Positions 8,822-29,573 of a DNA stretch of 64,000 nucleotides are shown here, piece after piece. The stretch covers positions 99 through 64,098 of the forward strand of contig DATGKN010000164.1 of the NCBI GenBank assembly GCA_035294645.1. The letters run 5' to 3'. The notes beneath the pieces are model-generated. The model was given only the letters and a program-made list of their open reading frames with translations. It ran no database searches and was not told the origin of the DNA. The first letter of the stretch is position 1. Each line of letters starts with the position of its first letter. Made by a program: the position numbers and the translations under genes. The DNA is from Chloroflexota bacterium (GTDB lineage Bacteria; Chloroflexota; UBA6077; JAJPHF01).

Positions 8822-8845
8822 TGGGCGCCAGGATTGGACATAACG

Positions 8846-9159: not shown

Positions 9160-9179
9160 GATGATAATATGGATTATCA
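9160..9179. promoter_or_regulatory. AT-rich inverted repeat ATGATAAT-n4-ATTATCAT upstream of the small gene
   Basis: 8-bp perfect inverted arms separated by ATGG, the only AT-rich patch in this intergenic region. A TATACT -10-like hexamer on the minus strand at 9119-9124 lies between it and the 8846..9067 start. Confidence 0.3.
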
Positions 9180-9199
9180 TAAGCATGGCCGCGCCCGCC

Positions 9200-10507: not shown

Positions 10508-10585
10508 GGTCCGTGTGTCCGCCGCGACGCGGGGCCTTCCCTGGCAAACGCTGCGCGGCTCCCTCCTCGCAGAGTGGCGCGGGGA

Positions 10586-11680: not shown

Positions 11681-11841
11681 GCTCAGCCCCTTTCCAACCG
11701 CTGCGCGCCGTGGCCCTCGTCGCTATTATCGGCCGAGCGCCCGTAACCGCGTAGCCTCACTTCCCTGTAACCGGTTGCCCCGCCCGCCGATAATAGCCCA
11801 CAGGTCCGCCCCCGAGCGGCCGCGGCGCGGGCGGTGGTCGC

Positions 11842-16553: not shown

Positions 16554-19139
16554 TCACGACTGGTCTCTGCTGGGCGCGCAGTCGTACAGTTGCCCGGGCG
16601 GCGGGCCGAATGGCCGTGCTGATGGGGTGCCGCCGTAGGCCGTGGCCTCCACCAGCTGGCAGTGGGCCTGCACCCAGGCCTGGCGGTCGGCGTGTCCGCC
16701 GGGCCCGGCCCCAGGCGGACCGCCCAGCAGCACGAACCGCAGCGCGCCAGCACGCACCAGGGCCGCGAGCTGGGCCGTCGTGGGCACCGGGTCGGCGCCA
16801 GCGAAGCCGCCCATCGCCAGCACCGGCTCGCCCGTGGCCAGGATCAGCGGCGCCGCGGCCATCGAGCCGGTCGTCGCCACCAGGTACGTCGCGCCGTCGC
16901 GGTGCGCCTGGAGGTAGGCGATGAGGCCCGGGCTGGTAGCGTCGGGGGGCGCCCCTGGTGGCCCCGGGGGCAGCCCGGGCGGCAGCGGCGGATTCCCGGC
17001 CACGGGCACGCCCAGGCCCGGGCCGAGCCCGGCGCCGGGTGGTGGTCCGAACGGCAGCCCGCCGGCCGCGCGCGGCCCCGCCTGGGGGTTCATCGCCAGC
17101 GCGGGCTGCTGAAGGGTCGCTACCCCCCAGGCCGCCGGCCCGAGCAGCAGCGCCGCCATGCCGAGCCCGAACGCGGCGACGCCTATCGTCCGTCGGCGGC
17201 CGCAGTGCGCCGCGATCAGGCCACCGCCGGCCAGCAGCGCGCCGCCCGCGATGACGCTCCCCAGCCACGGGTGCCACCCGCCGCGCGCCACCAGCACCGC
17301 GGGCCAGCCCGCGCCCAGCCCCAGGGCCAGGGGCAGCAGCCGCCCCGCCCAGGTTCGCTGCCGATAGGCGTCCCACAGCGTGGCCAGGCCCGTGCCCGCG
17401 AGGGCGGCGATGGCCGGGGCCAGGGCGGCGGTGTAGTAGGGATGGAAGATGCCCCGCATGCAACTGAACACCACGGCGTGGGCGACCAGCCAGCCGCCCC
17501 ACAGCAGGCACGCCGCGCGGGGGCCGTCGGTGCGCGGCCGGCGCCCGCGGCTGGCGAGCCCCACGGCCAGGCCGAGCGCGGCCAGGGGCAGCAGCCAGCT
17601 GATCTGATCGCCGACCTCCGCGTTGAATAGGCGCAGCCAGCCCGGCGGCCCGCCGAACCCGCCGCCGGGGCCCGGGGGCGGGCCGCCGGACGACAGCGCG
17701 GCACCTGGCGGCGGGGGCAAGGTGTCGCCAACGGCCCCCGGCGGCGCGCCGGCCGGGGGCGGTGCGTCCGGCGGGCCCCCGGGGCCCTGCCCCCACAGCC
17801 GGCCCAGCCCGTTGTAGCCGAGCGCCAGCTCGAAGGCGCTGTTGGTCTGGCTGCCGCCAATATATGGGCGGGCTTCCGGCGGCGTGAGCGCCACTGCCAG
17901 CGGCCACGCCGCCGACACCGCGGCCAGCAGCGTCCCAAACGCCAGCAGGTGGCCCAGGCGCCGCCGCAGGGTGCCCGGCGCGGCCACGAGGTACGTCAGC
18001 GCGCACGCCGGCACCACCAGGTACGCTTGCAGCATCTTGGTGGTGAATGCCAGCCCCACCAGCGCGGCGCTCGCCAGTAGCGGGCGCAGCCGCCCGCTCT
18101 CCACGGCCACCAGGAGGCACCCGCCGGCCCCCACCAGCAGCAGCACGAGCAGCGCATCGGGCAGGTTGGTGCGGTTGATGGCCACGCTCACCGGCGTGAG
18201 CGCCAGGATGAGCGCCGCGAGCAGCGCGGCCAGTGGCCCGTGGCTGCGGCGCACCGCCCAGTGCAGCGCCAGCACGGTGAGCACCCCTTCCACCACCTGC
18301 GGCAACAGCAGGCTGGTGCCCTGGAAGCCGAGCAGCCGCGCCGCCAGCGCCTGGAGCCACAGGGCTAGCGGGGGCTTGTCCACGGTGATGAAGCCGGCGG
18401 GATCGAACGCGCCGAACAGGAAATTCGACCAGCTCGCCAGCATGCTGCGCACCGCTGCGGCGTAGTAGGGGTTGCCCCAGCCCTCGCGCGTGATGCCCCA
18501 GCCGTACAACACCGCCGCCAGCGCGAGCACGCCGCTCAGCGCCGGTCGCTCCCAGCGCGGGGCGCCCGGTGCCGCCACGCCGTGGTGCCCGGCGGGCACG
18601 CCCGCGGAGGCTTGCTCGGCGCCCGAGGTGCCCGGCAGGCGGTCGGTGGGCGTGGGACACGGCAGGGCCGCGCGCTGCTGCACGCGCGGTGGCGCGCCAG
18701 CGGGCCGAAACACGATCCGATCGCCCAGCAGGAAGTTGGCGCCCGCGGCCGCCAGGATCCCCAGCGCTGCGGCCACGCTCGGCGGCAGCGCCGCCCGCGC
18801 GCCCGTGAACACGGCCCAGTTCAGCGCCGCGGTGCTGGCCATCGCCAGGTGGAACCGCGCCCACTGCCGCGCTAGCGCCGCGCCGGCCGCCTGGGGCGAA
18901 CGGCGATCGCGCCAGGTGAAGCCGGCGCTGAGCCCGAAGTTCACCTGGGTGGCCACGAGCAGCGCCGCGGCATTGGCCAGTAGCGGCGCCCACCCTAGCG
19001 CGAGCCCGACGTGCAGCCCGGCGAGCTGCACCAGGCTGGCCGCCGTGCCGGTGGCGGCGAAGCGGAACAGGCGAGGCCGGAACAGTGCGGGCCCGCGCGT
19101 CGCGCGGCTCGGCGCCGCCGGGGGGCAGCTAGCCAGCAT
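16554..19139 (-). CDS. Fusion of a GtrA-like flippase domain with a GT-C glycosyltransferase (GT39/ArnT/PMT-like) plus C-terminal Pro/Gly-rich extension
   Basis: N-terminal 4-TM GtrA-like segment (RFAATGTAASLVQLAGL...RFHLAMASTAALNWAVF...). Then a GT39/ArnT-type region (YGWGITREGWGNPYYAAAVRSM...FITVDKPPLALWLQALAARLLG...). Multiple TM helices and PPGxPP-rich loops. Start chosen at MLASCPP (11-nt overlap with the upstream GT2 stop); ORF-track start 19199. Confidence 0.7.
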   Translation of the reverse strand: MLASCPPAAPSRATRGPALFRPRLFRFAATGTAASLVQLAGLHVGLALGWAPLLANAAALLVATQVNFGLSAGFTWRDRRSPQAAGAALARQWARFHLAMASTAALNWAVFTGARAALPPSVAAALGILAAAGANFLLGDRIVFRPAGAPPRVQQRAALPCPTPTDRLPGTSGAEQASAGVPAGHHGVAAPGAPRWERPALSGVLALAAVLYGWGITREGWGNPYYAAAVRSMLASWSNFLFGAFDPAGFITVDKPPLALWLQALAARLLGFQGTSLLLPQVVEGVLTVLALHWAVRRSHGPLAALLAALILALTPVSVAINRTNLPDALLVLLLVGAGGCLLVAVESGRLRPLLASAALVGLAFTTKMLQAYLVVPACALTYLVAAPGTLRRRLGHLLAFGTLLAAVSAAWPLAVALTPPEARPYIGGSQTNSAFELALGYNGLGRLWGQGPGGPPDAPPPAGAPPGAVGDTLPPPPGAALSSGGPPPGPGGGFGGPPGWLRLFNAEVGDQISWLLPLAALGLAVGLASRGRRPRTDGPRAACLLWGGWLVAHAVVFSCMRGIFHPYYTAALAPAIAALAGTGLATLWDAYRQRTWAGRLLPLALGLGAGWPAVLVARGGWHPWLGSVIAGGALLAGGGLIAAHCGRRRTIGVAAFGLGMAALLLGPAAWGVATLQQPALAMNPQAGPRAAGGLPFGPPPGAGLGPGLGVPVAGNPPLPPGLPPGPPGAPPDATSPGLIAYLQAHRDGATYLVATTGSMAAAPLILATGEPVLAMGGFAGADPVPTTAQLAALVRAGALRFVLLGGPPGAGPGGHADRQAWVQAHCQLVEATAYGGTPSARPFGPPPGQLYDCAPSRDQS

Positions 19140-19992
19140 GGACACGCCTCCGCTCCGACGCCTGTGGTACCGCTGGCGCATCGGCCCGGCCCAGCTCACG
19201 GCGCAGCGACAGCAGCTCGGCCAGCGCGCGGGCGATCACCGCGGGCCGGGCGCCTGTGGCGCGGCCGGCGGTGCGCGGCAGGTGGCGCACCGGCCGCTCT
19301 TTCACCCGGAAGCCCGCGCGCCGCGCCTTGATCAGGAACTCGGCGCTGAACGCCGCGCCACGCGAGCGCACGGTGAGCCGCTCCCACACCGCGCGGCGGA
19401 ACAGCTTGAACGCGCAGTCGATGTCGCGCGCGGTGTAGCCGAACAGGGCGTGGACCAGCAGCCGCCAGCCCCAGGCGTTCAGCGTGCGCAGCGGCGGGTC
19501 GACCCGCGGGCACCGCCAGCCGATCACCAGGTCGGTGGACTCGTCGAGGTCGGCCAGGAAGTCCGCCAGCTCGCGGACATCGAACTGCCGGTCGGCGTCG
19601 GTGTAGAAGAGCAGCTGCTTGCGCGCGGCATCGAAGCCGCTGGCCAGCGCGGCGCCGTAGCCCTGATTGCGCTGGTGCGTGACGACGCGCAGGTGCAGCG
19701 CCGGCTCGCGGGCGCTCAGCGCCGCCAGCAGCCGACCAGTGGCATCGCGCGAGCCGTCGTCGACCACCACGATCTCGAAGTCGTCCACTAGGGCGCGCAG
19801 CACCGCGGCCAGCTCGCGGACGGCCGCCACGATGCAGGCTTCCTCGTTGTAGGCTGGCAGCACGGCCGAGAGGCTCAGCGGCTCGGCCGGCCCCGCTGGC
19901 CGCAGGGGGCGTACCGCCCTGGCGAGCTGGGGTAGGGGCCGCAGGGTAGACACGCGCGGCCCCTCAAGGGACAGAATGCTTCGCCCTGACAT
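19129..19992 (-). CDS. GT2-family polyprenol-phosphate sugar synthase (GtrB / Dpm1 / Ppm1-like)
   Basis: LSLSAVLPAYNEE...EIVVVDDGSRD...HQRNQGYGAALASG (DXD-type GT2-A motifs). ATG at 19992 preceded by GGGAGGAG. The 395-aa ORF-track version is over-extended. Confidence 0.8.
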   Translation of the reverse strand: MSGRSILSLEGPRVSTLRPLPQLARAVRPLRPAGPAEPLSLSAVLPAYNEEACIVAAVRELAAVLRALVDDFEIVVVDDGSRDATGRLLAALSAREPALHLRVVTHQRNQGYGAALASGFDAARKQLLFYTDADRQFDVRELADFLADLDESTDLVIGWRCPRVDPPLRTLNAWGWRLLVHALFGYTARDIDCAFKLFRRAVWERLTVRSRGAAFSAEFLIKARRAGFRVKERPVRHLPRTAGRATGARPAVIARALAELLSLRRELGRADAPAVPQASERRRVHAG

Positions 19993-20023
19993 GAGTCTCC
20001 TCCCTGGTCGCATGGACGTGCGC

Positions 20024-20302
20024 TCAGCCCGCCTGGGGCTGGGCGGCCTTCGGGGGGCGGCCCCGGCGGCGCGGCCGCCACTCCAGCGGGTTCGGTAGCG
20101 GCCGCACCGGCTGGACCTCGTCCAGGAACACTGCCCCGCCACAGTGCGCGCAGCGCACCTGCCAGAGCCAGCACACCTGCCGCACCGCGCGGCCCGGGAC
20201 GACCAGCACGCCGCGCTCGCCCGAGGACCCTTCGGACGACCAGGTCCAGGCGCCCGAGATGCGCCCGCACAGGTAGCAGCGGACTTCGGCGCAAAATCGC
20301 AT
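20024..20302 (-). CDS. Small zinc-ribbon protein (two CxxC pairs) with basic C-terminal tail
   Basis: CYLCG ... CAHCG. GGAGGA RBS 5 nt upstream of ATG. Same strand, 31 nt upstream of the GT2 gene. Confidence 0.55.
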   Translation of the reverse strand: MRFCAEVRCYLCGRISGAWTWSSEGSSGERGVLVVPGRAVRQVCWLWQVRCAHCGGAVFLDEVQPVRPLPNPLEWRPRRRGRPPKAAQPQAG

Positions 20303-20490
20303 CGGTTCCTCCTCACGTCGTGGGGCTGTGGTGCTATCCGCAGAGTACGGGGGCGGACCGGGCTCCTACATCCAGCGAAGGCGTACTCGTGGCCCGACCG
20401 CTTGGGTGGAGGCGCCGCTCACCCGAACGGGTCATCGGCCGGCGCGCGTGGGCCGCGGACGGGGGAACAGTGGGCAGGCGGCGCGGGGGG

Positions 20491-21198
20491 CTAGCGGGCG
20501 GGGAGCGGCGCGAGCGGCGGGCTCGCCGGCGCGGCGCTGCCGGGTGGGGGGAGCGCGCCGCCAGGCGGCGGCAACAGCCCGGCGCCCGGAGGGAGCCCAC
20601 CCAACGGTGGGGCGCCATCGCGGCTGAGGATCTGCACGCTCACGCCGCCCGCGGCGTCGCTGACGGCCACGAACTGGCCCGGCTGGAGCGCGCTGCGGTC
20701 CGCCGTGACCACTTCCTGCACGCGGGTGTCCGGCGCCAGCGGCACGCGCTGTTCGCCGAACGGGGTGGTGAGCACCAGGGTATCGCCCTCCACCGCGGCC
20801 ACTAGTCCTACCCGTGGCGCGCTCCCCGGCGGCAGGGTGCCCGGCGCGGGGAGTAGTGGGTCACTGACGCCGGTCGGCAAGGTCGCGCTCGCCGGCGCGC
20901 TAGCGGGCGCCGGCGGCAGGGCGGGCAGGGGCGTCACGGCCAGCGGCGGCGTCGGGCGGAACGCAGTTAGCCGCGCTGCCCCGCCGCCCAGCCCGGCCCC
21001 GACCACACAGGCGGCAGCGAGCAGCGCCCACCACGGCGCCCGGCGGAGCGGGCGGGCGGTTGGGGATAGGGCGCCAGCCCTGGCCAGCGCGGACGTGTCG
21101 CGCGGCGCCGCCCGCGCCCCGTCGGTCGCCACCGCCGTGGCCGCCGAAGGCTGTGCAGCTGGCCGGGCGTGATGATCCTGGTCTGCGCGCTCTGTCAT
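20491..21198 (-). CDS. Single-pass membrane protein with Pro-rich extracytoplasmic region and a small beta-rich domain
   Basis: TM WWALLAAACVVGAGLGG. Pro-rich linkers (PLPALPPAPASAPASATLP...; C-terminal GGLPPGAGLLPPPGGALPPPGS). Central segment VGLVAAVEGDTLVLTTPFGEQRVPLAPDTRVQEV...LQPGQFVAV resembles the beta-barrel/MP domain of HlyD-type adaptors. Confidence 0.5.
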   Translation of the reverse strand: MTERADQDHHARPAAQPSAATAVATDGARAAPRDTSALARAGALSPTARPLRRAPWWALLAAACVVGAGLGGGAARLTAFRPTPPLAVTPLPALPPAPASAPASATLPTGVSDPLLPAPGTLPPGSAPRVGLVAAVEGDTLVLTTPFGEQRVPLAPDTRVQEVVTADRSALQPGQFVAVSDAAGGVSVQILSRDGAPPLGGLPPGAGLLPPPGGALPPPGSAAPASPPLAPLPAR

Positions 21199-21231
21199 TA
21201 TGTCGCCTCACACGCTTGTACTCCGCCGGGG

Positions 21232-22497
21232 TCACTCGTAGCGCAGCGCCTGGATGGGGCGCAGCTGCGCGGCGCGCAGCGCGGGGTAGGTGCCGAAGAA
21301 CAGGCCCACGGCCACCGAGACGCCGAAGGCCAACAGCACAGCGTCGGGAGTCACCACCGCCTGCGCGTCCCGCGTGCCGGGCGGGCCGGGCAGTACCGCC
21401 ACCGCGCCCACGAAGCGCGCCGCGACCAAGCCCGCGCCGATCCCCAGCAGCCCGCCGCAGCTGCTTACTACCAGCGCCTCGATGAGGAACTGCACCAAGA
21501 TATCGCGCCGCCGGGCGCCCACTGCCTTGCGAATGCCGATCTCCCGCGTGCGTTCGGTGACCGACACCAGCATGATGTTCATGATGCCGATGCCGCCCAC
21601 TACCAGCGAGATGCCGGCGATGGCGCCCAACAGCAGCGTCATCGAGCCGCTGACCTGGCTGACAGTCCGCAGGAAATCTTCCTGGCTCTGGATGCTGAAG
21701 TCGTCCTGCACGACGCGGTGGCGCTGGCGCAGCAGCGCCCCGATCTCCGCCACGGCGCGCGCCATCTCTGCCTCGTCTGCCACCGAGACGTTGATCGTGG
21801 ACACCGTCTGCGCGCCCTGGACGTTGCGATTCGCCGCCACCCGCGCGATGTAGGTCGTCAGCGGCACGAACACCTGGTCGTCCGGGCTGCCGAAGCCCGT
21901 GCCGCCCTTGCTCTCCATCACCCCGATGACCGTGAAGATCACTCCCGTGCTGCCCGACACGCTGAGCCGCACGGCCTGACCGAGGGGGCTCCCGCCGGGG
22001 AACAGGTTGCGCGCTACCGTGGCCCCAAGCACCATCACGGCGCGGCGCTGCTCATACTGCTCGGCGGTGAAGAACTGCCCCGCCGCCGGCCGCCAGTTGC
22101 GGACCGCCGGGTAGCTGGGGTTGGTGGCCACGATGCGCGTGTTCCAGTTCTGGTTGCCGGCCACGAGCTGGCCGCTGCTACCCAGCTCGGGTGCCACGGC
22201 CTGCACCGAGCGCACCGCCTGCAGGATCGCCGCGGCGTCTTGCAGCGTCAGGGTCGCTGCGCTGCCCTGGGCGCCGCGCACCCCGCCCGATTGCGTGGAG
22301 CCGGGCCGGACGAAGAGAATGTTGGTGCCCAGGCTCTGGATCTGCTGCAAGATGCTGATCTGCGCGCCGCGCCCGACCGCCACCATGGCGATCACCGCGC
22401 CGACGCCGATGATCAGCCCCAGCATGGTGAGCAGCGCCCGCAGCTTGTTGGCCGCTAGCGCCCGCACCGCGATCCGCACGCTCTCCCACAGGTTCAT
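21232..22497 (-). CDS. MacB/FtsX-family ABC transporter permease (YknZ/MacB-like)
   Basis: N-terminal TM, large extracytoplasmic domain, three C-terminal TM helices. ...[31 protein letters not shown]... (FtsX signature). Confidence 0.85.
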
Positions 22498-23225
22498 GGG
22501 CGCCCCGCCTGCGCCGGCCGCGCCACCGGCGCATCGCTGCTGATCACCCCGTCCCGCAGCGTGATCACCCGCTGGGCATGCTCCGCGATGTCCTCCTCGT
22601 GCGTCACCAGCACCACCGTCAGCCCTCGCTCCCGATTCAGCGCCTGCAGCAGCCCCATGATCTCCTCGCTGGTCCGCGTGTCCAGCGCCCCGGTCGGCTC
22701 GTCCGCCAGTATCAGGCTCGGCTCCGTCACCAGCGCCCGCGCGATCGCCACCCGCTGCTGCTGGCCCCCCGACAGCTCCGTCGGCTTGTGGTGCGCCCGC
22801 TCCGCCAGCCCCACCGCCCGCAGCGCCGTCAGCGCCCGCTCCCGTCGGGGCCGGATGCCCCCGTAGAGCAGCGGCAGCTCCACCTGCTCCACCGCCGGCA
22901 GTCGCGGCAGCAGGTTGAAGCTCTGGAACACGAACCCCAGCTTGCGGTTGCGGATCCTCGCCAGCTCGTCGTCGCTAAGGTCCGCGACCTCCACCCCGTC
23001 CAGCTGGTAGCTGCCGCTGGTGGGCTGGTCGAGGCAGCCGATGATGTTCATCAGGGTGGACTTGCCCGACCCCGACGGCCCCATGATGGCCACGAACTCG
23101 CCGTGCTGGATGTCCAGCGACACCCCCCGCAGCGCGTGCACCGCGATGTCGCCCATCGTGTACACCTTCGTCACGTCGCGGATCCGGATGACCGTCTGGT
23201 CGGGTGCCGTGAGCAACTGCTCCAT
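22494..23225 (-). CDS. ABC transporter ATP-binding protein (MacB/LolD/YknY type)
   Basis: Walker [13 protein letters not shown] signature [15 protein letters not shown], Walker [15 protein letters not shown] at 23225 with GGAGGGGAG RBS; 4-nt overlap with the permease gene. Confidence 0.9.
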
Positions 23226-23279
23226 TGCCGGGTGCTCCCCTCCGTTTCTCACGGGCGGTGAGGCTGACCGGGCAGCGCG

Positions 23280-26111
23280 CTAGCGCGGGCCCGCGCCGCG
23301 CGCGCCGCCAGCGGCCGGGGGGGCGCCGGGGGGTGGGCCGCCGGGAGGCGGGGCGCCCGGGGGCGGCGCGCCCGGTGGCAGCAGCAGCCCCCCGACCATC
23401 GGGTTGCTGGTGTTCCCAATGACGGTTGGGAGGACCACCTGCTCGCCTTCGGCTAGGCCGAACGTGATCTCGGTCTGCTGCTCGTCGCTGAGGCCGCGCT
23501 GCACCGCGCGCGTCGCGATCTGGCCGTCGGCGGTCAGCACATCCACGACGTACCCGGGGCCCTGCTGGCGCAGCGCGCGGCTGGGCACTAGCAGGGCGTC
23601 GGCCTTCTGTGCGTAGATGATGGTGGCGGTGGCCGTCATGCCGGGCCAGATGTCGCGCTGGTCGTCCAGCGCGATGTACACCAGGTAGCTGGTCACGCCC
23701 TGGGAGGTGGTCCCCTGAGGGCTGAGCGCCGTCACCCGCCCCGGCACCACGCGCCCCGGCAGGGCGTCGAGGGTGAGCTGCACGGGTAGCCCGACCCGCA
23801 GGTTCGGTATGTCCACCTCCGCCACGCTGGCCTCGACGTGCAGCGCGTCGGTGCTCATCACGGTGATGGCGCCGCCGCTGTTGGTGGCCCCGCTGCTGCC
23901 GGAGGTCGTGCTGCCACTGGCGGACCCGGAGCTGCCGCCACCGATGCCGCCGGATTGCTCGCCGACGTTGTAGCCCACTTGGCTGACGACGCCCGCGAAC
24001 GGGGCGACAAGTACGGCGTGGTCGAGGTTGCGCTGCGCCTGGGTCAGGCGGGCGCGGGCATCGTCCACGGCGGCGAGCTGGGCGGCGAGGTCTTGCTCGG
24101 TGTAGGGCCGTAGCTTGAGCTGGGTGTCGGCTTGCGCTTGGGCCACGGCCTGGCGCTGCTGCTCGAGGGCCTGGGGGCTGGTGGGCTGGCGCTTGAGGGC
24201 GAGCTGCGCCTCCGCCTGGCGCACGGCCTGGCGCTGGGCCTCCAGGTCCTCGTCGGTGTAGGGGCGGCGCGCCTTGGCCAGCTGCTCCTCGGCCTGGCGC
24301 ACGGCGGCCTCGGCCTGGGCGATCTCCTCCGGCCGCGGCCCCGCCTGGAGCTGTTGCAGCTTCACCTCGGCCGCTTGCAGGTTGGCGCGGGCGGTCGCCA
24401 CGTTGGCCTCGGCGGCGGCGAGGTCGTCGGGCTTGGGCTGGGCGCGTAGGTCGGCCAGCTTGGCCTCGGCGCTGCGCACGCCCACGCGGGCGGCTTCCAC
24501 GGCGGCTTGCGCGGCGGCGATCGCTTCCGGCCGCGGGTTGCGCAGCTCCTCCAGGTGGGCGAGCGCGCTCTGGTAGTTGTTGCGCGCCTGCTCGAGGGCG
24601 CTTTGGGCCTCGGCCAGGTCGGCGGGATTGGGGTTGTACAGCTGGTCGAGCTTGGCCTGGGCGCTGGCCACTGCCGCCAGGGCCGCGTTCACGTTCGCCT
24701 GGGCGCCGGGCAGGCCGTTGTTGCGCCCGCCGGCTTGCAGGCCCTGCAGCGTCGATTGGGCGCGCAGCAGCGTGGCGTTGGCGCTGCTCACGGCCGCCTG
24801 GGCGCTGTACAGGTCCTGGGGGCTGACCTGGGACGCCCCGCCGGCCACGCCGCCGCTGACGGTTGCGTTGGTCGCGCTGGTCGCGCTGGCACCGCTGGTG
24901 TTCGCGCCGGCGGCCGTGCCCGTGGCGGGCGCGGTGCTGGCGGCCGCGCTGGTGGTGCCCGCGCTGGAGCCGCCGGGCTGCCCCTGGAGCTGCCCCAGGC
25001 GCGCCTGCGCGGCCTGCAGGTTGCGGGCGGCGGTGAGCACGTCCTCGCCCGCGGCGGCCATCTCCCAGGCGCCGGTCTGGGCGCGGGTCTGGGCCAGGGT
25101 GGTCTGCGCGGAGCGGAGCTGGGCCTGGGCCTGCTGGAGCTGGGCCTGGGCCACCGCCACGTCGGCCGCCGAGGGGTTGCGCAGCTGGCGCAGGCGGGCC
25201 TCGGCGCTCTGCTGGGCGGCCAGCGCGTTGTCCACCGCGACCTGGGCGGCCACCAGATCGGCCACCGTGGGGTGGAGCAGCTTGTCGAGCTGGTCCTCGG
25301 CGCTGCGCAGGTTGGCCCGCGCGGAGGCGAGCTGCGCCTCGGCGGCCTCGAGGTCGGCCGGGGTGGCGCCCGCGCGCACCTGTTCCAGCCGGGCGAGGTT
25401 GCTGGCCAGGGTAGCGCGGGCGCTGTCCACGGCGGCCTGGGCGGCGGCCAGGTCGGCCGGCAGCGGCGAGTTGCGCAGGTCCTGCAGCTTGGCCCGCGCG
25501 CTGTCGAGCGCCGCCTGCGCCGCTGCGATGTCCTCGGGGCGTCCCTGCGCCTCCATGCTGCGCAGCTTGGCCACCGCGGCGTCCAGCTGGGCCTGGGCGG
25601 TGGCGATGTCCTCGGATCGCGGCGTGGCCAGGTCGGCCAGGCGCGCCTGCGCCTGCGCCAGCTGCGCTTGCGCGCTAGCGACCTCCTCGGGCCGCGCGCC
25701 GTTGAGCAGCGTCTGGAGCTTGGCCTCGGCCTGCGTCACCGCCGCCTGGGCCTGGCGGTACTGGAGCTCCAGCTCGTCGGTATCCAACTGCGCCAGCACC
25801 TGGCCGGCCTCGACGCGGTCGCCGACTTTCACCGCGACGCTGGCCACCCGCCCGCTGACCAGGAAGTTGAGCTTCGTGCTAGTATCGGCCACCACCGTGC
25901 CCGCGCTGCTCACGCTGGCTTGGATCGGGCCGCGAACGGCCGGCACGGTCTGCACCTCCCGGGGCGCGGGCGTGGTCAGGCGCGCGTACGCGGCGTAGCT
26001 CAGCCCGGCGCTGAGGACCAGCGCCAGGCCGAGATAGAGCCACTGCGTGGGACGCAGGCCCGCGCCGACCCCGCGCAGGGTGGCGCCGGGGCGTGCGGCA
26101 GCTGCTCGCAT
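23280..26111 (-). CDS. HlyD/MacA/YknX-family membrane-fusion (periplasmic adaptor) protein with a hugely expanded alpha-helical repeat region (943 aa)
   Basis: N-terminal TM (WLYLGLALVLSAGLSYAAYA). Beta-strand (VSSAGTVVADTSTKLNFLVSGRVASVAVKVGDRVEAGQVLAQLD). About 20 tandem 25-33-aa helical units of type P-[ED]-[DE]-[IL]-A-x-AQAxLDxAxAxL. Canonical hairpin end and apfdGvV-like motif (LVAPFAGVVSQV). C-terminal beta domain and GAPPPGAPPPGGPPPGAPP tail. [13 protein letters not shown]. Confidence 0.8.
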   Translation of the reverse strand: MRAAAARPGATLRGVGAGLRPTQWLYLGLALVLSAGLSYAAYARLTTPAPREVQTVPAVRGPIQASVSSAGTVVADTSTKLNFLVSGRVASVAVKVGDRVEAGQVLAQLDTDELELQYRQAQAAVTQAEAKLQTLLNGARPEEVASAQAQLAQAQARLADLATPRSEDIATAQAQLDAAVAKLRSMEAQGRPEDIAAAQAALDSARAKLQDLRNSPLPADLAAAQAAVDSARATLASNLARLEQVRAGATPADLEAAEAQLASARANLRSAEDQLDKLLHPTVADLVAAQVAVDNALAAQQSAEARLRQLRNPSAADVAVAQAQLQQAQAQLRSAQTTLAQTRAQTGAWEMAAAGEDVLTAARNLQAAQARLGQLQGQPGGSSAGTTSAAASTAPATGTAAGANTSGASATSATNATVSGGVAGGASQVSPQDLYSAQAAVSSANATLLRAQSTLQGLQAGGRNNGLPGAQANVNAALAAVASAQAKLDQLYNPNPADLAEAQSALEQARNNYQSALAHLEELRNPRPEAIAAAQAAVEAARVGVRSAEAKLADLRAQPKPDDLAAAEANVATARANLQAAEVKLQQLQAGPRPEEIAQAEAAVRQAEEQLAKARRPYTDEDLEAQRQAVRQAEAQLALKRQPTSPQALEQQRQAVAQAQADTQLKLRPYTEQDLAAQLAAVDDARARLTQAQRNLDHAVLVAPFAGVVSQVGYNVGEQSGGIGGGSSGSASGSTTSGSSGATNSGGAITVMSTDALHVEASVAEVDIPNLRVGLPVQLTLDALPGRVVPGRVTALSPQGTTSQGVTSYLVYIALDDQRDIWPGMTATATIIYAQKADALLVPSRALRQQGPGYVVDVLTADGQIATRAVQRGLSDEQQTEITFGLAEGEQVVLPTVIGNTSNPMVGGLLLPPGAPPPGAPPPGGPPPGAPPAAGGARGAGPR
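24010..25750 (-). repeat. Degenerate in-frame tandem coding repeats (about 75-100 nt units) encoding the coiled-coil repeats of the adaptor, interrupted by Ser/Thr/Gly/Ala low-complexity linkers
   Basis: Repeated protein units listed under the adaptor CDS. DNA copies are diverged (not a recent duplication), visible as recurring gcctgggc / gcgctg / ctcggc blocks and as LGLGLG-type artefacts in other frames. Confidence 0.6.
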
Positions 26112-26153
26112 GAAGCTCTCCTCCCGTGGGGTGGATGGGATCCGTGGCCGGGG

Positions 26154-26687
26154 CTAGCGCGGTGGTAGCCCCTGCGGCGGCGGGCCCGGTGGCGGACCGC
26201 CCGGCGGTGGGGGAGGAGGCGCGGGATTACCGTTAACGACCATCGGGGCGGGAGGCGCGGGATTAGCGATCAGCTGGGCGGTGAACTGCTGCGCGCGCTG
26301 CAGGATCGTGTCGGCGTCGCTTTGGCTGAGGCGCCCGGCGCTCACCTGCTCGGCGAGCCAGCTCGCCGCGGCGCTGGTCATCGCATTGAGCAGCGTGCTC
26401 TGGTCGATGCCCCGGGCCGCGGCCAGGTCCGCGAGGCTGCGCCCGTTGCGTCCCTCGGCCCACAGTTGTTCCTGCGTGAGCCCGAGCAACGCCAGGGCCG
26501 CCTGCATGCCGGCATCCATGGCCCCTCGGTCGCTTTCCGAGGGCGGCGGGCCCGGGGGCGGGCCGCCCGGGGGGGGCCCGCCGGGGGGAAAGGTGGGGCC
26601 GCCCTGGGCGAGCGCGCTGCCAGCCAGCACTGCCAGGCCTAGCCCGGCGCCCAGCGCCCCCCGTCCGAGCTTGTCGCGGAGCCGCAT
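26154..26687 (-). CDS. Secreted Pro-rich protein with a helical core containing an LTxxQ-like motif (first gene of the exporter cluster)
   Basis: Signal peptide LGLAVLAGSALAQG. N-terminal GGPPPGGPPPGPPP and C-terminal PPPPPPGGPPPGPPPQGLPP tracts. Core ...LLGLTQEQLWAEG... GAGGAGG RBS 7 nt before ATG. Confidence 0.6.
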   Translation of the reverse strand: MRLRDKLGRGALGAGLGLAVLAGSALAQGGPTFPPGGPPPGGPPPGPPPSESDRGAMDAGMQAALALLGLTQEQLWAEGRNGRSLADLAAARGIDQSTLLNAMTSAAASWLAEQVSAGRLSQSDADTILQRAQQFTAQLIANPAPPAPMVVNGNPAPPPPPPGGPPPGPPPQGLPPR

Positions 26688-26946
26688 CGACTAACCTCCT
26701 CGTCGGTCTGCCGGAAGCGCCCTGCCCGCGGGCCGTGGCGAGCTTCCGCGGCTAGGGTAGGCGACGTGTCCGGCGGCGGGCATCGGGCGGCGGGGTAACT
26801 CGCCCCTGATCGGTTTCGGCGGCGATCGCCCTACCCAAATGGGTGAGGCGCGGTCGCCTGTTCGGGGGAGCGCGCGCGGCCCGCGCGGACGATGGGGGAG
26901 ACTGGCCGATGCGCTACGATAGCCGGGTAGCGGACGAGGGGCGGAG

Positions 26947-28953
26947 ATGAGCGACCTGGCGGCAACTCCCGGGCCGCTAGCCGACGAGCGGCAGCGGCGC
27001 ACCCGACTGCTATGGCGGACGCTACCGGTCCTGTGGCTGCCCGCGGTGGCGGCGCTAGTCATGTGGCTGGTGCTGCACGTGGTGTTCGGCTGGCCGCCGG
27101 TCGCCGGCGGCGGCGAGTCTCTCCCCCCCGCCGAGCCCAGCCCGGAGCGGGTGGTGGTGCTCGTACAGGTGCTCCCGCCCGGTTCCGGCACGCCCCCCTC
27201 GCCGCTGCCGCTGCTGCTGGCGCAGCTTCTGGTGCCGCTGCTGCTAGCCGGGTTGCTGCTCGTGCTGCTGCGCGCCGGCCGCACTACCACGGCGGCGTTG
27301 GTGCTGGTGGGGGTGTGGACGCTGTTCTTCACCGTCGGGGTGTTGAGCAGCGGGGTGATGAGTTTCTGGCCGGCGTCGCTTGTGGTGCCGATCTGTGCCG
27401 CGGCGCTGCTGCTGGGGAGTCGGGCCAGCATGGCCCTGGCCGCGCTCGCCACCCTGCTGGTCGTGGGGAGCGTGTGGCTGGAGAGCCACGGTGTGCGCCT
27501 GCACCAGCTGTTCGGGCCTTTGGTGTTTCCCCTGGGGCGGCCGCCTCCTCCGCCCCCCCCCGGGCTGGTGGCGCCGGGCGAGCTCGTCCAGCGGCTGGGT
27601 GCCCCCCCGCCGCCGCTGCTGGAGGCCGGCTACTGGATCGGCCTGTTCTGGACCGTGGCGGCGCTCACCTCCCTGCTGGCCGACAGCCTGCAGCGCGCGC
27701 TGGGCGAGAGCCGCGCCCAGGCCCGCGCCCTGCGCCGGCTGAGCAGCACCCTGGAGCAGCGCGTGGCCGAGCAGACGACCGAGCTGGCGCAGCGCGCCGA
27801 GCGCGCCGAGGCGCTGTACGAGGTGAACCGCGCCCTGACCAGCACCCTCGACCTCCCTACCGTGTTGAACTTGATCGCCGAGCAGGCCGCGCGCCTGCTG
27901 CGCTTCGGGGCCTCGCTGGTCCTGTTGGACCAGGGCCAGCGGCAGTTCGCCCGGGTGGCCGGCTACCGCGAGCCCGCCGGGGTGGTCCCGGCGCTGGCCG
28001 CCCACGATGTGGCGCTGGCGCGCGTCTGCCACGAACGCCAGCCGGGAGTGATCGCCCTGGGGCCACCAGACTTGCCGACGCCGCTGGACGCGCTCGCGCT
28101 GCCCCTGCGCTATGGCACTGAGGTCAGTGGCGTGCTGGTGTTGGTCGATCGGGCGCGCGGCGCCGCGCTGGGGCCCGACGACCTGGCATTGGCCGAGGGC
28201 TTCGCCGATCAGGCGGCAGTGGCGATCGCCAACGCCCGCTTGCTCCACCAGGTGCGCGAGGCCGCCACGCTGGAGGAGCGCGCGCGGCTGGCCCGCGAGA
28301 TCCACGACGCGCTCGCCCAGGGCCTCACCGGCATCGTGGTCCAGCTCGGCGCGCTCGAGCGGGCCCTGGCGCGGGCACCCGGCGAGGCGGCCCGCCATCT
28401 GGAGCTGGCCCAGCGAATGGCGCGCGAGGCGCTGGCCGAGGCGCGGCGCTCGGTGTGGAACCTCCGCTCGCCCTTGCTGGAGCGCGGCGACCTGGGCGAC
28501 GCGCTGCGCAGCCTCGCCGCGCGCCCGCCGCAACCGGGTATCGCCGCCCACTTCACCCAGCGGGGCACGCCGTGGCCGCTGGCGGCTGCGGCGGAGGGCG
28601 CGCTGCTCCGCGTGGCGCAGGAGGCGCTGGCCAACGTGGCCAAGCACGCCCAGGCCACGGCAGTCGCTATGACCCTGGAGTATGCCCCGGAGGGCGTTCG
28701 GCTCGTCGTGCAGGACAATGGCGTCGGGTTCCCCGCCGGGGTGCTGGACCAGCAACGCGACGGCGACTTGCCGTGGGGCGGCTTCGGCCTGCGGGGAATG
28801 CGCGAGCGGCTGCAGGCGCTCGGCGGCTGTCTGGAGCTGACCAACGCGGGGGGCGCTCGGGTGGTCGCCACGGTCCCCCGAGCGGCGGCGCAGCAGCCCG
28901 CCCGGCTGCTGGCGGGCGCGGGGGCAAGTCGCCTGAACGGGGAGGAGGCGTGA
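26947..28953 (+). CDS. Polytopic membrane sensor histidine kinase with GAF domain and HisKA_3 dimerisation domain (NarL-partner type)
   Basis: About 8 predicted TM helices in the first 300 aa. GAF-like region. HisKA_3 H-box ERARLAREIHDALAQGLTGIVVQL. ATPase G-boxes (DNGVGFPAG...GGFGLRGMRERLQALGG). Divergent from the exporter cluster. Confidence 0.8.
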   Translation: MSDLAATPGPLADERQRRTRLLWRTLPVLWLPAVAALVMWLVLHVVFGWPPVAGGGESLPPAEPSPERVVVLVQVLPPGSGTPPSPLPLLLAQLLVPLLLAGLLLVLLRAGRTTTAALVLVGVWTLFFTVGVLSSGVMSFWPASLVVPICAAALLLGSRASMALAALATLLVVGSVWLESHGVRLHQLFGPLVFPLGRPPPPPPPGLVAPGELVQRLGAPPPPLLEAGYWIGLFWTVAALTSLLADSLQRALGESRAQARALRRLSSTLEQRVAEQTTELAQRAERAEALYEVNRALTSTLDLPTVLNLIAEQAARLLRFGASLVLLDQGQRQFARVAGYREPAGVVPALAAHDVALARVCHERQPGVIALGPPDLPTPLDALALPLRYGTEVSGVLVLVDRARGAALGPDDLALAEGFADQAAVAIANARLLHQVREAATLEERARLAREIHDALAQGLTGIVVQLGALERALARAPGEAARHLELAQRMAREALAEARRSVWNLRSPLLERGDLGDALRSLAARPPQPGIAAHFTQRGTPWPLAAAAEGALLRVAQEALANVAKHAQATAVAMTLEYAPEGVRLVVQDNGVGFPAGVLDQQRDGDLPWGGFGLRGMRERLQALGGCLELTNAGGARVVATVPRAAAQQPARLLAGAGASRLNGEEA

Positions 28954-29573
28954 TGCGCGTGCTGGTCGTCGACGACCATCCGGTCGTGCGCCAGGGGCTC
29001 ATAGCTATTCTCCAGTTCGAGCCCGACATCGAGCTGGTCGGCGAGGCGGCCGACGGCCGCGAGGCCGTGCGGCTCATCCTAGAGCGGCGGCCCGACGTGG
29101 TGCTGCTCGACCTCCGGCTGCCCGAGCTGAGCGGGGTGGAGGTGATGCGCGCGGTCCGCCCGCAGGCGCCGGAGGTCCGCTTCCTGGTGCTGACCACCTA
29201 CGACACCGAGATGTACATCGCCCCCGCCCTCGCCGCCGGGGCGCGCGGCTACCTCCTGAAAGACGCCGCGCCCGACGAGCTGGTGCGCGGGGTGCGAGCG
29301 GTCATGGAGGGCCGCGCGGCCCTGGAGCCGTCCGTCGCCGCGCGCCTGCTCGACCGCATGGCCGAGCCGGAGGGGGGCGAGCTGTCGGAGCGGGAGCGCG
29401 AGGTGCTGGGGCTGTTGGTGCGCGGCGCCAGCAACAAAGGCATCGCCCACCAGCTCGGGCTATCCGAGAACACCGTCAAGGCCCACGTGGCGCACATCTT
29501 CAACAAGCTGGGCGTGCAGAGCCGCGCCGAGGCGGTGGCCGTGGCGCTCCAGCGCGGGCTGGTCGATCCGTGA
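28953..29573 (+). CDS. NarL/FixJ-family response regulator (REC + LuxR-type HTH)
   Basis: MRVLVVDDHPVVRQGL...VVLLDLRLPELSG...; LuxR HTH LSEREREVLGLLVRGASNKGIAHQLGLSENTVKAHV. ATG overlaps the kinase stop (TGATG). Confidence 0.9.
   Translation: MRVLVVDDHPVVRQGLIAILQFEPDIELVGEAADGREAVRLILERRPDVVLLDLRLPELSGVEVMRAVRPQAPEVRFLVLTTYDTEMYIAPALAAGARGYLLKDAAPDELVRGVRAVMEGRAALEPSVAARLLDRMAEPEGGELSEREREVLGLLVRGASNKGIAHQLGLSENTVKAHVAHIFNKLGVQSRAEAVAVALQRGLVDP

What the first reader, a model, noticed from the sequence alone, without database searches (positions are those of the whole stretch)
23280..26111. HlyD-family periplasmic adaptor expanded to 943 aa by about 20 tandem alpha-helical repeats
Typical MacA/YknX/HlyD adaptors are 350-450 aa with one alpha-helical hairpin. 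Here, between the membrane-proximal beta strand and the canonical hairpin end (LVAPFAGVV), the helical region is built from many diverged copies of a 25-33-residue unit (P-E/D-D/E-I/L-A-x-AQAxLDxAxAxL...). The repeats are split by two Ser/Thr/Gly/Ala low-complexity linkers (GGSSAGTTSAAASTAPATGTAAGANTSGASATSATNATVSGG and SGGIGGGSSGSASGSTTSGSSGATNSGGAITV). The protein ends in a GAPPP pentapeptide-repeat tail. This predicts a coiled-coil stalk several times longer than in E. coli MacA, as if spanning an unusually thick or multilayered envelope. The DNA copies are diverged, so this is an old, selected architecture rather than a recent duplication.
Basis: seen in the sequence. Interest (0 to 1): 0.7.

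Follow-up and report, generated by a model that had tools for sequence, protein, structure and literature searches.

The report
Giant-hairpin efflux adaptor of Chloroflexota
This is a real efflux-pump adaptor gene whose helical hairpin is about six times longer than in E. coli MacA, built from 18 short helices mirrored around a floppy tip; it belongs to a large Chloroflexota family that I could not find described in the literature and that may carry exported material across their thick, layered cell envelopes.

Summary
The 943-aa ORF lies on the minus strand (26111→23280). It is one intact gene, and it passes the periplasmic-adaptor (HlyD/MFP) threshold. A MacB-type ATPase gene and a permease gene follow it directly.

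Between the two halves of the lipoyl domain there are 18 helices, not about 20. Sixteen begin with the motif P-x-[D/E]-[L/I/V]-A-x-A-Q-A. Nine helices run out and nine run back. Their lengths mirror each other, and the Ser/Thr/Gly linker at residues 379-430 sits at the midpoint. The linker is therefore the hairpin tip.

The second linker (residues 720-748) does not split the repeats. It is an enlarged lipoyl loop at the position of MacA's gating/valve loop.

The architecture is a family trait. Hundreds of Chloroflexota adaptors have helical regions of 130-790 residues. In 59 of 104 homologues a Cys-loop tip lies at 0.499±0.002 of that region. The query, at 591 residues, is near the top but is not the longest.

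If the hairpin is straight it is about 40 nm long (EmrA, called "exceptionally long", is 12.7 nm). Monomer AlphaFold models support extension near the base. They do not rule out folding back further out.

I found no paper describing these proteins. Verdict: a new variant of a known kind.

The parts
23280..26111 (-). Adaptor gene, 943 aa plus stop codon (periplasmic adaptor / membrane fusion protein family)
25974..26051 (-). N-terminal membrane anchor, residues 21-46
   Evidence: Hydrophobic run WLYLGLALVLSAGLSYAAYA. AlphaFold helix 21-46.
25785..25949 (-). First beta strands and N-terminal half of the lipoyl domain, residues 55-109
   Evidence: Biotin_lipoyl_2 at residues 80-110. Strands 55-109 in the model.
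24984..25778 (-). Outgoing arm of the hairpin: 9 helices, residues 112-376, of 25, 22, 23, 23, 30, 29, 29, 29 and 27 residues
   Evidence: AlphaFold secondary structure, pLDDT mostly 75-93. Proline-anchored units. Heptad pattern with L/V/I at position a and Ala at position d.
24822..24983 (-). Hairpin tip: disordered Ser/Thr/Gly/Ala segment, residues 377-430
   Evidence: pLDDT <50. Its centre lies at 0.51 of the helical region. In 59 of 104 homologues the same place holds a Cys-X(6-14)-Cys loop, at 0.499±0.002.
24021..24821 (-). Returning arm of the hairpin: 9 helices, residues 431-697. Read from the base outwards they are 26, 22, 22, 21, 29, 29, 29, 26 and 29 residues.
   Evidence: AlphaFold. 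The mirror match to the outgoing arm has sum|diff| 10, against 44 in parallel order; permutation p = 0.0056.
23853..24020 (-). C-terminal half of the lipoyl domain, residues 698-753, beginning LVAPFAGVV
   Evidence: HlyD_3 and HlyD_D23. Alignment to E. coli MacA residues 172-230.
23868..23954 (-). Ser/Gly-rich insertion of about 29 residues (720-748) in the lipoyl loop that forms the gating ring / valve in MacA and Spr0693
   Evidence: It aligns with MacA residues ~200-213. Removing it restores a full HlyD_3 match, 1-102 of 106. pLDDT <50. The gating ring is described in PMC5768738.
23418..23852 (-). Beta-barrel and membrane-proximal domains, residues 754-898
   Evidence: pLDDT about 95. Aligned to MacA, 4dk1 and CusB.
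23283..23417 (-). Disordered Pro/Gly-rich C-terminal tail, residues 899-943, with 4 x G-A/G-P-P-P
   Evidence: Sequence. 15-nt period x 4.0. pLDDT about 40. Gly/Pro-rich tails are present in most homologues.
22494..23252 (-). MacB-type ABC ATPase, 252 aa, starting 27 nt after the adaptor
   Evidence: ABC_tran. Best NCBIfam matches are MacB, LolD and DevA. Kept next to the adaptor in L001-L003.
21232..22497 (-). MacB-type permease, 421 aa; its start overlaps the ATPase stop
   Evidence: MacB_PCD and FtsX. Syntenic in L002 and L003 at 64-67% identity.
26947..29573 (+). Divergently transcribed two-component system: a GAF/HisKA_3 kinase (26947-28953) and a LuxR-type response regulator (about 28950-29573). 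It is a possible regulator of the pump, by position only.
   Evidence: Pfam. No test of linkage was made.

Best explanation
**What it is.** The gene encodes the adaptor subunit of a MacB-type (type VII ABC) export pump of a Chloroflexota bacterium. It has the standard adaptor parts: an N-terminal membrane anchor, a split lipoyl domain, a beta-barrel and a membrane-proximal domain.

**How the hairpin is built.** The alpha-helical hairpin inserted in the lipoyl domain has been lengthened to 2 x ~266 residues.
- It consists of 18 short helices of 21-30 residues. Each helix is capped by a proline and carries a heptad pattern with Leu/Val/Ile at position a and Ala at position d.
- Nine helices go out and nine return. 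Helix i pairs antiparallel with helix 19-i, so the breaks in the two arms are level with each other.
- The 54-residue Ser/Thr/Gly segment is the tip.
- Within the family, length changes by adding or removing one unit in each arm.

**How it most likely works (inferred).** By homology with MacA, YknX and Spr0693, six copies would form a 12-helix tube on top of the transporter.
- If the segments are roughly collinear, the tube is about 40 nm long, and its end lies about 45-50 nm from the membrane.
- It would carry substrates expelled by the MacB-type transporter through the peptidoglycan and the non-lipid outer layers of the Chloroflexota envelope.
- No TolC-like partner would be needed.
- The enlarged Ser/Gly lipoyl loop would act as a soft one-way valve.

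**Status of each step.** Shown: family, domain order, operon, the 9 + 9 mirrored plan, the tip at the midpoint, and family-wide conservation. Inferred: hexamer, straightness, conduit function and substrate.
For: **Family and operon:**; synteny.

**Mirrored design.**
- Helix lengths are 25, 22, 23, 23, 30, 29, 29, 29, 27 in the outgoing arm. The returning arm read backwards is 26, 22, 22, 21, 29, 29, 29, 26, 29 (p = 0.0056).
- Homologues with other unit counts are palindromic too. P0010 reads 31, 26, 24, 27, 30, 27, 30, 37 | 43, 32, 25, 30, 28, 23, 26, 32. P0014, P0009, P0011 and P0012 behave likewise.

**Tip at the exact centre.**
- A Cys-X(6-14)-Cys loop lies at 0.499±0.002 of the helical region in 59 of 104 homologues, for the region lengths seen with that loop (296-505 residues in the examples listed).
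- In 29 more distant representatives it lies at 0.499±0.017.
- The query's linker lies at 0.51.

**Coiled-coil chemistry.** L/V/I occupies position a in 27 of 27 motif matches (overlapping, heptad-shifted positions). Ala occupies position d in 24 of 27. A second Ala stripe at position f occurs in 20 of 27, so each helix has two packing faces, as expected in a helix barrel.

**Extension near the base.** The full-length model aligns 327/340 residues of MacA at 7.4 A, 270/344 of E. coli EmrA at 6.9 A, and 315/326 of Aquifex EmrA.

**Precedents.**
- Hairpin length varies by paired heptad insertions (PMC4446572).
- EmrA has level insertions in both helices (PMC4158417).
- Adaptors of Gram-positive bacteria form hexameric nanotubes without an outer membrane (PMC5768738; PMC5985334).

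**Scale.** 532 helical-region residues x 127 A/168 residues = about 402 A. Chloroflexales have external layers of 30-50 nm (PMC7332563).

**No TolC docking signs.** The RLS tip motif is present in only 8 of 189 family members. No OEP-family gene was found among the window genes scanned.
Against: - The tools give no coordinates, so straightness was judged only indirectly.
- The AlphaFold model of residues 216-591 alone (pLDDT 69.7) matches three-helix bundles best: syntaxin Habc, TBCA and Smac, about 97 residues at 2.3 A. At least one fold-back is therefore modelled there.
- Joints of 3-4 residues with Gly/Asn-Pro also suit helix-turn-helix corners.
- CusB shows that an adaptor hairpin can fold back on itself.
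- The mirror test on proline-anchored unit lengths alone was not significant (r = 0.58, p = 0.10; permutation p = 0.18).
- The helix lengths that do give p = 0.0056 come from the model itself.
- In the crude family test only 24% of homologues reached p < 0.05, because many joints have lost their proline.
- Hexamer formation, substrate and the envelope of the source organism are all unknown.
- The source genome is not available, so the absence of a TolC-like gene is unproven.
Confidence: 0.55

Rival explanations
1. Fold-back (accordion) hairpin. The two arms pair as described. However, the level joints act as hinges, so successive two-helix segments fold onto each other into four-helix bundles. 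The result is a compact or only moderately long cap or cage over the transporter, not a 40-nm tube.
For: - The joints are short Gly/Asn-Pro turns.
- Neighbouring segments have similar lengths (22-23, then 29-30 residues), so they could pack side by side.
- Two packing faces per helix fit a bundle as well as a barrel.
- CusB is a solved adaptor with a folded-back hairpin (PMC4446572).
Against: - That model is a truncated monomer of lower confidence. The five models range from pLDDT 55 to 70.
- AlphaFold tends to bury faces that would normally sit in an oligomer (general experience, not tested here).
- The same model still aligns 173 residues of the HlyD hairpin and 142 of EmrA.
- The full-length model follows MacA and EmrA across the first joints.
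- In homologues such as P0014, neighbouring units differ by up to 10 residues while mirror partners match.
- The graded series from about 130 to 790 residues continues the ordinary straight hairpins of short adaptors.
Confidence: 0.25
2. A spacer or force-transmitting scaffold rather than a conduit. The long coiled coil anchors the MacB-type motor to an outer wall layer. Alternatively, it transmits the motor's movements to a distant layer, as FtsEX does through the coiled coils of EnvC and PcsB. No substrate would pass through a lumen.
For: - Type VII ABC transporters include non-transporting mechanotransmitters such as FtsEX and LolCDE (PMC5985334).
- YknX binds peptidoglycan (same paper).
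- The tip is a disordered Ser/Thr-rich or Cys-stapled loop that could bind, or be glycosylated into, a wall polymer.
- A GT2 plus GT-C glycosylation gene pair lies downstream.
Against: - All adaptor domains needed to form the hexameric ring on MacB are intact and very confidently modelled (pLDDT about 95).
- The valve-loop position is kept and elaborated.
- There is no enzymatic or binding domain at the tip.
- The permease has the full MacB periplasmic domain.
Confidence: 0.12
3. Artefact. The long ORF would be a chance open frame in 74% G+C DNA, or a fusion of two genes by a sequencing frameshift, and the 'repeats' would be low-complexity Ala/Gln-rich translation.
For: High-G+C DNA gives many long spurious ORFs here. 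For example, 553-aa and 473-aa ORFs lie on the opposite strand of the same region. Ala makes up 27% of the helical region.
Against: - GC3 is 0.88-1.0 in one frame along the whole ORF, and a Shine-Dalgarno sequence is present.
- Both ends carry adaptor domains that must be joined by the hairpin.
- Full-length homologues exist in many assemblies.
- The motif occurs 21 times against 0.07 in shuffles of the same composition.
Confidence: 0.01

Closest known systems
E. coli MacA (PDB 5NIK, 3FPP), adaptor of MacAB-TolC
   Different: - The MacA hairpin is 67 A long. The one here is predicted to be about 400 A and is broken into 9 levels.
- The MacA tip docks on TolC. Here the tip is a 54-residue disordered segment and no TolC-type gene is seen in the window.
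- The valve loop is about 20-25 residues longer.
- There is a Pro/Gly tail.
- It is not a MacA orthologue: NF008606 scores 66 bits against a cut-off of 342.
Spr0693 (S. pneumoniae, PDB 5XU0) and YknX (Bacillus), adaptors of MacB-like pumps in bacteria without an outer membrane
   Same: The operon has the same layout of adaptor, separate ATPase and separate permease. The cells have no classical outer membrane. These adaptors form hexameric nanotubes thought to lead substrates away from the membrane into the wall (PMC5768738; PMC5985334). The homologues carry YknX-type barrel domains (Pfam PF25990).
   Different: The Spr0693 helical barrel is 56 A high, and the whole assembly rises 154 A above the membrane. 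Here the helical part alone would be about seven times longer.
Aquifex aeolicus EmrA (PDB 4TKO)
   Different: EmrA works with an MFS transporter and TolC and has no membrane-proximal domain. It has one level break rather than eight. Its hairpin is about 3.2 times shorter.
E. coli YbhG (NCBIfam PRK03598; Pfam HH_YBHG)
   Same: It is the best NCBIfam match, in four separate stretches. The homologues are marked HH_YBHG. From my own recollection of its sequence, which I did not check here, it has a few units of the same P-x-D/E-I-A-x-A type.
   Different: YbhG is 332 aa. The score of 134 bits is far below the equivalog cut-off of 393, so this protein is not an orthologue.
E. coli CusB
   Same: It is an adaptor whose hairpin is folded back on itself into a short helical bundle (PMC4446572). 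It is the precedent for the rival reading.
   Different: CusB is an RND metal-pump adaptor. It has a single short bundle, not a long repeat array.

Membership tests
Periplasmic adaptor / membrane fusion protein family (HlyD/MFP; NCBIfam TIGR01730) | Sequence score above the curated family threshold | tested here: met
   TIGR01730 scores 128.9 bits against a cut-off of 94.9. Pfam HlyD_3, HlyD_D23 and Biotin_lipoyl_2 all score above their cut-offs.
Periplasmic adaptor / membrane fusion protein family | Lipoyl domain split by an alpha-helical hairpin, followed by a beta-barrel and a membrane-proximal domain | tested here: met
Periplasmic adaptor / membrane fusion protein family | Membrane anchor at the N-terminus | tested here: met
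   A hydrophobic helix at residues 21-46. There is no lipobox cysteine, so the anchor is a transmembrane helix, as in MacA, HlyD and EmrA.
Periplasmic adaptor / membrane fusion protein family | Gene linked to an inner-membrane transporter | tested here: met
   A MacB-type ATPase and a MacB_PCD/FtsX permease follow directly downstream. The order is kept in L002 and L003.
Periplasmic adaptor / membrane fusion protein family | Hexameric ring or tube on the transporter | not testable with these tools
   Only monomer predictions were available.
Tripartite (TolC-dependent) efflux pump of diderm bacteria | Conserved hairpin-tip motif (R-x3-L-x6-S) for docking on the outer-membrane channel | tested here: not met
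   The pattern occurs near the tip in only 8 of 189 family members. The query does match it (R371-L375-S382), but the match runs into a Ser-rich segment and is not conserved. The tip itself is a disordered 54-residue loop.
Tripartite (TolC-dependent) efflux pump of diderm bacteria | An outer-membrane factor (OEP/TolC family) partner | tested here: inconclusive
   No OEP hit was found among about 37 window genes scanned. The rest of the genome is unknown. Chloroflexota are reported to lack BamA and LPS genes (PMC7332563).
MacA orthologues (NCBIfam NF008606), YbhG (NF002939), DevB (TIGR02971), EmrA (TIGR00998), type I HlyD (TIGR01843) | Score above the equivalog or subfamily cut-off | tested here: not met
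   Score against cut-off: MacA 66.2 vs 342; YbhG 133.9 vs 393; DevB 43.9 vs 129; EmrA 63.2 vs 390.8; type I HlyD 53.5 vs 208.65.
Long-hairpin adaptors of Chloroflexota (unnamed group defined here) | Helical region above about 290 residues made of proline-capped units in mirror order, a tip loop at the midpoint, and a Gly/Pro-rich C-terminal tail | tested here: met
   The query's helical region is 591 residues, with 9 + 9 helices. The tip lies at 0.51. The tail is present. The closest relatives are P0001 and P0002, at 54-56% identity over 92% of the query.

The most novel reading that the evidence does not exclude
Chloroflexota build export tubes that need no outer-membrane channel. A hexamer of the adaptor alone would form a segmented 12-helix conduit of 20-60 nm, running from a MacB-type pump through the peptidoglycan and the non-lipid outer layers to the cell surface. 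Its length is set in steps of one helix pair per arm. The hairpin-length classes (about 297, 350, 433, 505, 591, 637 and 788 residues) would then act as molecular rulers that report envelope thickness in each lineage. This would give a sequence-based handle on the long-running argument over whether these bacteria have one membrane or two.
Probability: 0.3. Interest if true: 0.8.

Novelty: new variant of a known kind. Interest (0 to 1): 0.6.

Why it matters
Adaptor hairpins are usually explained as the piece that reaches and opens TolC across a periplasm of fixed width. The 12.7-nm hairpin of EmrA is described as exceptional.

Here a whole family has hairpins up to three to five times longer than that. 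The family comes from a phylum that lacks the standard outer-membrane machinery. Its hairpin tips are disordered or disulfide-stapled and show no docking motif.

If the hairpins are straight tubes, they are a new way of crossing a thick envelope. Their lengths could then be read from genomes as a proxy for envelope thickness in mostly uncultivated bacteria.

The modular, mirrored unit plan is also a clean natural example of how a coiled-coil hairpin is lengthened, one unit in each arm. That is useful for protein design.

If the hairpins instead fold back, the family shows a new compact helical array built from two distant parts of one chain.

Tried and rejected
- **Frameshift or fusion, or a spurious ORF:** rejected on GC3, the Shine-Dalgarno sequence and full-length homologues.
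- **Recent DNA duplication:** rejected. No long-period tandem repeat was found, and the units are 37% identical on average.
- **Mirror test on proline-anchored unit lengths alone:** not significant. I kept it only as a weak indication and relied on the helix lengths, the homologues and the tip position instead.
- **Source contig:** the exact protein is not on record. Only a 123-aa fragment, P0157, is identical. The genome collection holds relatives of at most 56% identity.
- **Organism names for ten homologues:** none on record.
- **AlphaFold database search:** the library was not available. I therefore could not see how public models of relatives are shaped.
- **Local Pfam copy:** it lacks the newer adaptor-domain families (PF25881 and others), so those rest on precomputed hits for homologues.
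- **Upstream 177-aa gene as a conserved accessory:** no match in L001-L003.
- **P0189 (1045 aa) as a longer hairpin:** rejected. It is two complete adaptors fused in tandem.
- **Literature:** searches combining Chloroflexi/Chloroflexota with adaptor, HlyD, hairpin or membrane fusion protein found nothing relevant. The library does not cover most subscription journals.
- **Promoter and terminator scan:** uninformative.


Full report
**1. The observation**

The window has 70-77% G+C. It carries a 943-codon ORF at exactly 23280-26111, on the minus strand.

The ORF is a single real gene:
- The third codon position is 88-100% G+C in every 50-codon block of one frame.
- GGGAGGAG lies just upstream of the ATG.
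- Homologues of 926 and 952 aa cover 92% of it.

The family assignment is solid:
- Pfam finds Biotin_lipoyl_2 at residues 80-110, and HlyD_3 and HlyD_D23 at about 749-819.
- NCBIfam TIGR01730 (RND_mfp) scores 128.9 bits against a cut-off of 94.9.
- The best match is YbhG (PRK03598), in four stretches.

**2. The repeats**

Sixteen units of 23-38 residues begin with x-x-P-[E/A/Q]-[D/E]-[L/I/V]-A-x-A-[Q/E]-A-x-[L/V]. A regular expression for this motif hits 21 times. The mean over 5000 composition-preserving shuffles is 0.07 and the maximum is 3.

The units are diverged. Mean pairwise identity is 37% and the maximum is 69%. Tandem Repeats Finder sees no long-period DNA repeat. It finds only the 15-nt x 4 array that encodes the G-A/G-P-P-P tail.

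**3. Architecture**

AlphaFold2 was run with a 70-sequence alignment and gave mean pLDDT 80.1. The model contains:
- a membrane helix at residues 21-46;
- beta strands at 55-109;
- nine helices at 112-376;
- a disordered stretch at 379-430;
- nine more helices at 431-697;
- beta domains at 700-893 with pLDDT about 95;
- a disordered tail from residue 899.

The helix lengths are 25, 22, 23, 23, 30, 29, 29, 29, 27 going out. Read from the base on the way back they are 26, 22, 22, 21, 29, 29, 29, 26, 29. The summed difference is 10 residues, against 44 if the arms are compared in parallel order (permutation p = 0.0056).

This test has two weaknesses:
- These lengths come from the model itself.
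- The same test on the proline-anchored units alone was not significant.

I therefore looked for independent evidence in relatives.

**4. The family**

The word-indexed search found 2051 relatives. The best 120 are almost all 590-950 aa. Every hit that carries an organism name is a Chloroflexi/Chloroflexota genome bin. The closest genome loci are also Chloroflexota bins, at 54-56% identity.

The exhaustive search of 1.84 billion cluster representatives gave 818 clusters at E < 1e-30.

I measured the helical region from the end of the first lipoyl half to the A-P-x-x-G motif:
- In the first set it falls into classes of 296-298, 333-396, 412-434, 444-472, 487-517, 554-565, 585, 591 (the query), 611 and 637 residues.
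- The 487-517 class is the largest and corresponds to the ~820-aa proteins.
- In the wider set it ranges from 129 to 788 residues, with a median of 335.

The query is therefore in the upper tail but is not the record.
- P0240 (1110 aa) has 788 residues in this region, including seven or eight nearly identical 33-residue units.
- P0189 (1045 aa) is a tandem fusion of two adaptors.

**5. Independent evidence for one symmetric hairpin**

Where every joint still has its proline, the series of unit lengths is palindromic:
- P0010: 31, 26, 24, 27, 30, 27, 30, 37 | 43, 32, 25, 30, 28, 23, 26, 32.
- P0014: 31, 26, 23, 32, 34, 24, 66 | 64, 25, 34, 30, 25, 26, 32.
- P0009, P0011, P0012, P0016 and others behave the same way.

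In these, the mean mismatch is at most 2.2 residues per pair. In the crude test over all 104 sequences only 24% reach p < 0.05, because lost prolines merge units.

The stronger result concerns the tip:
- 59 of 104 homologues have exactly one Cys-X(6-14)-Cys loop in the helical region.
- Its centre lies at 0.499±0.002 of the region's length (range 0.495-0.503), for the region lengths seen with that loop, 296-505 residues in the examples listed.
- In 29 more distant representatives it lies at 0.499±0.017.
- The query, P0001, P0002 and P0051 have a Ser/Thr/Gly-rich segment at 0.50-0.52 instead.

I draw three conclusions:
- The two arms are equal in length to within a few residues.
- Length changes in evolution by one unit in each arm.

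This extends the known rule that adaptor hairpins grow by paired heptad insertions (PMC4446572).

**6. The second linker**

The Ser/Gly-rich stretch at residues 720-748 lies after LVAPFAGVV.

In alignments with E. coli MacA it corresponds to the lipoyl loop around MacA residues 200-213. In Spr0693 and MacA this loop forms the gating ring, which acts as a valve (PMC5768738; PMC5985334).

Removing the stretch restores an end-to-end HlyD_3 match. It is therefore an enlarged domain loop and not a break in the repeats.

**7. Coiled-coil chemistry**

Motif matches, including overlapping heptad-shifted positions, were aligned on the first hydrophobic residue:
- L/V/I occupies positions 0, 7 and 14, in 27/27, 27/27 and 19/27 of them.
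- Ala occupies positions 3 and 10, in 24/27 and 20/27.
- Ala also occupies positions 5 and 12, in 20/27 and 15/27.

This is a heptad with large residues at position a, Ala at position d, and a second Ala stripe on another face. From my own knowledge, Ala at d is typical of tight antiparallel pairs. A second stripe implies that each helix packs against two neighbours. That fits a helix barrel, but it equally fits a four-helix bundle.

**8. Straight or folded?**

I could address it only indirectly, because the tools return no coordinates.

- E. coli EmrA 8zar_A: 270 of 344 aligned, rmsd 6.9 A.
- Aquifex EmrA 4tko_B: 315 of 326 aligned, rmsd 14.1 A.

A second model covered residues 216-591 only. 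It was less confident, with mean pLDDT 69.7 and a range of 55-70 over the five models.
- It also aligned 173 residues of the HlyD hairpin and 142 of EmrA.

At least one fold-back is therefore modelled in the isolated distal half. Monomer models of proteins that normally assemble often bury their free faces, and CusB shows that a real adaptor can fold back. I leave this question open, at roughly 55:25 in favour of an extended hairpin.

**9. Size if extended**

The calculation is scaled on EmrA, where 168 hairpin residues span 127 A.
- The 532 residues of the two arms give about 400 A.
- That is 3.2 times EmrA, 6 times MacA and about 7 times the Spr0693 barrel.
- With the lipoyl, barrel and membrane-proximal rings, the tip would lie about 45-50 nm from the membrane. 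This figure is an inference from the Spr0693 dimensions.

The envelope of the host phylum is on the same scale:
- Cryo-tomography of Chloroflexales shows multilayered envelopes.
- They have an amorphous external layer 30-50 nm thick.
- No BamA or LPS genes were found (PMC7332563).
- Litorilinea has a cytoplasmic membrane, peptidoglycan, an inner layer, an outer layer and a protein coat (PMC13319060).

The scales match, but the envelope of this particular organism is unknown.

**10. Context**

Five genes lie head to tail on the minus strand:
- a 177-aa secreted protein with PPPG runs at both ends and no family assignment (26154-26687);
- the adaptor;
- a MacB/LolD/DevA-like ATPase (22494-23252);
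- a MacB_PCD + FtsX permease (21232-22497);
- a 235-aa protein with a Pro/Gly tail (20491-21198).

The order adaptor-ATPase-permease is kept in two Chloroflexota loci. In L002 the ATPase is 94% identical, the permease 67% and the adaptor 56%.

A GAF/HisKA_3 kinase and a LuxR-type regulator are transcribed divergently. Further downstream on the same strand are a GT2 gene and a GtrA + PMT_2 + YkcB_C glycosyltransferase gene.

No OEP/TolC-family gene was found among the genes scanned. The R-x3-L-x6-S tip motif used for TolC docking is not conserved in the family, being present in 8 of 189 members.

**11. Comparison with what is known, and novelty**

The protein is a member of the adaptor superfamily. 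It is not an orthologue of MacA, YbhG, DevB, EmrA or type I HlyD, because all of those scores fall far below the curated cut-offs.

It works most like the MacA/YknX/Spr0693 group. It differs in five ways:
- the length of the hairpin;
- the regular proline-capped, level joints;
- the disordered (elsewhere disulfide-stapled) tip;
- the enlarged valve loop;
- the Gly/Pro tail.

Databases label these proteins generically. Reviews up to 2026 treat EmrA as the long extreme. My searches found no description of the Chloroflexota group, though the searchable library is incomplete.

I rate it a new variant of a known kind. It is a family-level feature, not a peculiarity of this gene.

Noticed in passing
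window 16554-29000 (GT-C aa 472, 505, 737; p235 aa 210; adaptor aa 912-936; p177 aa 29-49 and 157-171; kinase aa 199): Pro/Gly-rich runs of the PPPG type are concentrated in the envelope-related proteins of this gene cluster. Only one other such run was found, in the kinase at 4784-8821, among the 33 window genes scanned. They may be extended spacers. The cause is unknown.
   Followed up: partly
window 19129-20316 (-) and 16554-19199 (-): A GT2 glycosyltransferase gene and a GtrA + PMT_2 + YkcB_C (GT-C) glycosyltransferase gene lie just downstream of the pump on the same strand. Such pairs glycosylate wall polymers or Ser/Thr-rich secreted proteins outside the membrane. The adaptor has two Ser/Thr-rich disordered segments. 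The link is speculative.
   Followed up: partly
window 26154-26687 (-): A 177-aa protein is encoded 42 nt upstream of the adaptor. It has a signal-like N-terminus, PPPG runs at both ends and a helical core of about 90 aa. No Pfam or NCBIfam match was found, and it has no counterpart in L001-L003.
   Followed up: partly
window 20491-21198 (-); L002 7270-7416; L001 14252-14482: A 235-aa protein downstream of the permease has a short conserved core (aa 131-201) that recurs at the same position in two related loci. It resembles DUF5666 only faintly.
   Followed up: partly
L002 (Chloroflexota bin HOG27) compared with window 21232-26111: The rates of change within one operon are very unequal. The ATPase is 94% identical, the permease 67% and the adaptor 56%. 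The adaptor, or at least its hairpin, evolves much faster than the motor.
   Followed up: partly
P0240 (1110 aa) and P0189 (1045 aa): P0240 has a 788-residue helical region with 7-8 nearly identical 33-residue units (EPDPLEVEAKRRQVAVARANLDQAQEDLTTLTN). This is a recent expansion in one arm, and its Cys loop lies off-centre at 0.55. P0189 is two complete adaptors fused in tandem.
   Followed up: partly
homologues P0010, P0011, P0044 and others: Most family members carry exactly two cysteines in the helical region, forming a C-X(6-14)-C loop at the hairpin tip. Examples are CDETTGKC and CSKLGGSSGAC. This is probably a disulfide staple and fits an extracytoplasmic location.
   Followed up: yes
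L001 and L003 (same genome bin, SMAG_U9903): One Chloroflexota genome carries two long-hairpin adaptor genes, each next to a MacB-type ATPase. In L001 no permease match follows the ATPase.
   Followed up: no
window 4784-15279: There is a dense block of signalling genes: a 1345-aa PAS/GAF hybrid kinase, a GAF-HD protein, a receiver-kinase, and a 1145-aa dCache/HAMP/GAF/PAS kinase.
   Followed up: no
window 1328-2359 (+): A MerR-family regulator with B12-binding domains. By my recollection of the CarH family, which I did not check here, this domain combination suggests a light-responsive regulator.
   Followed up: no
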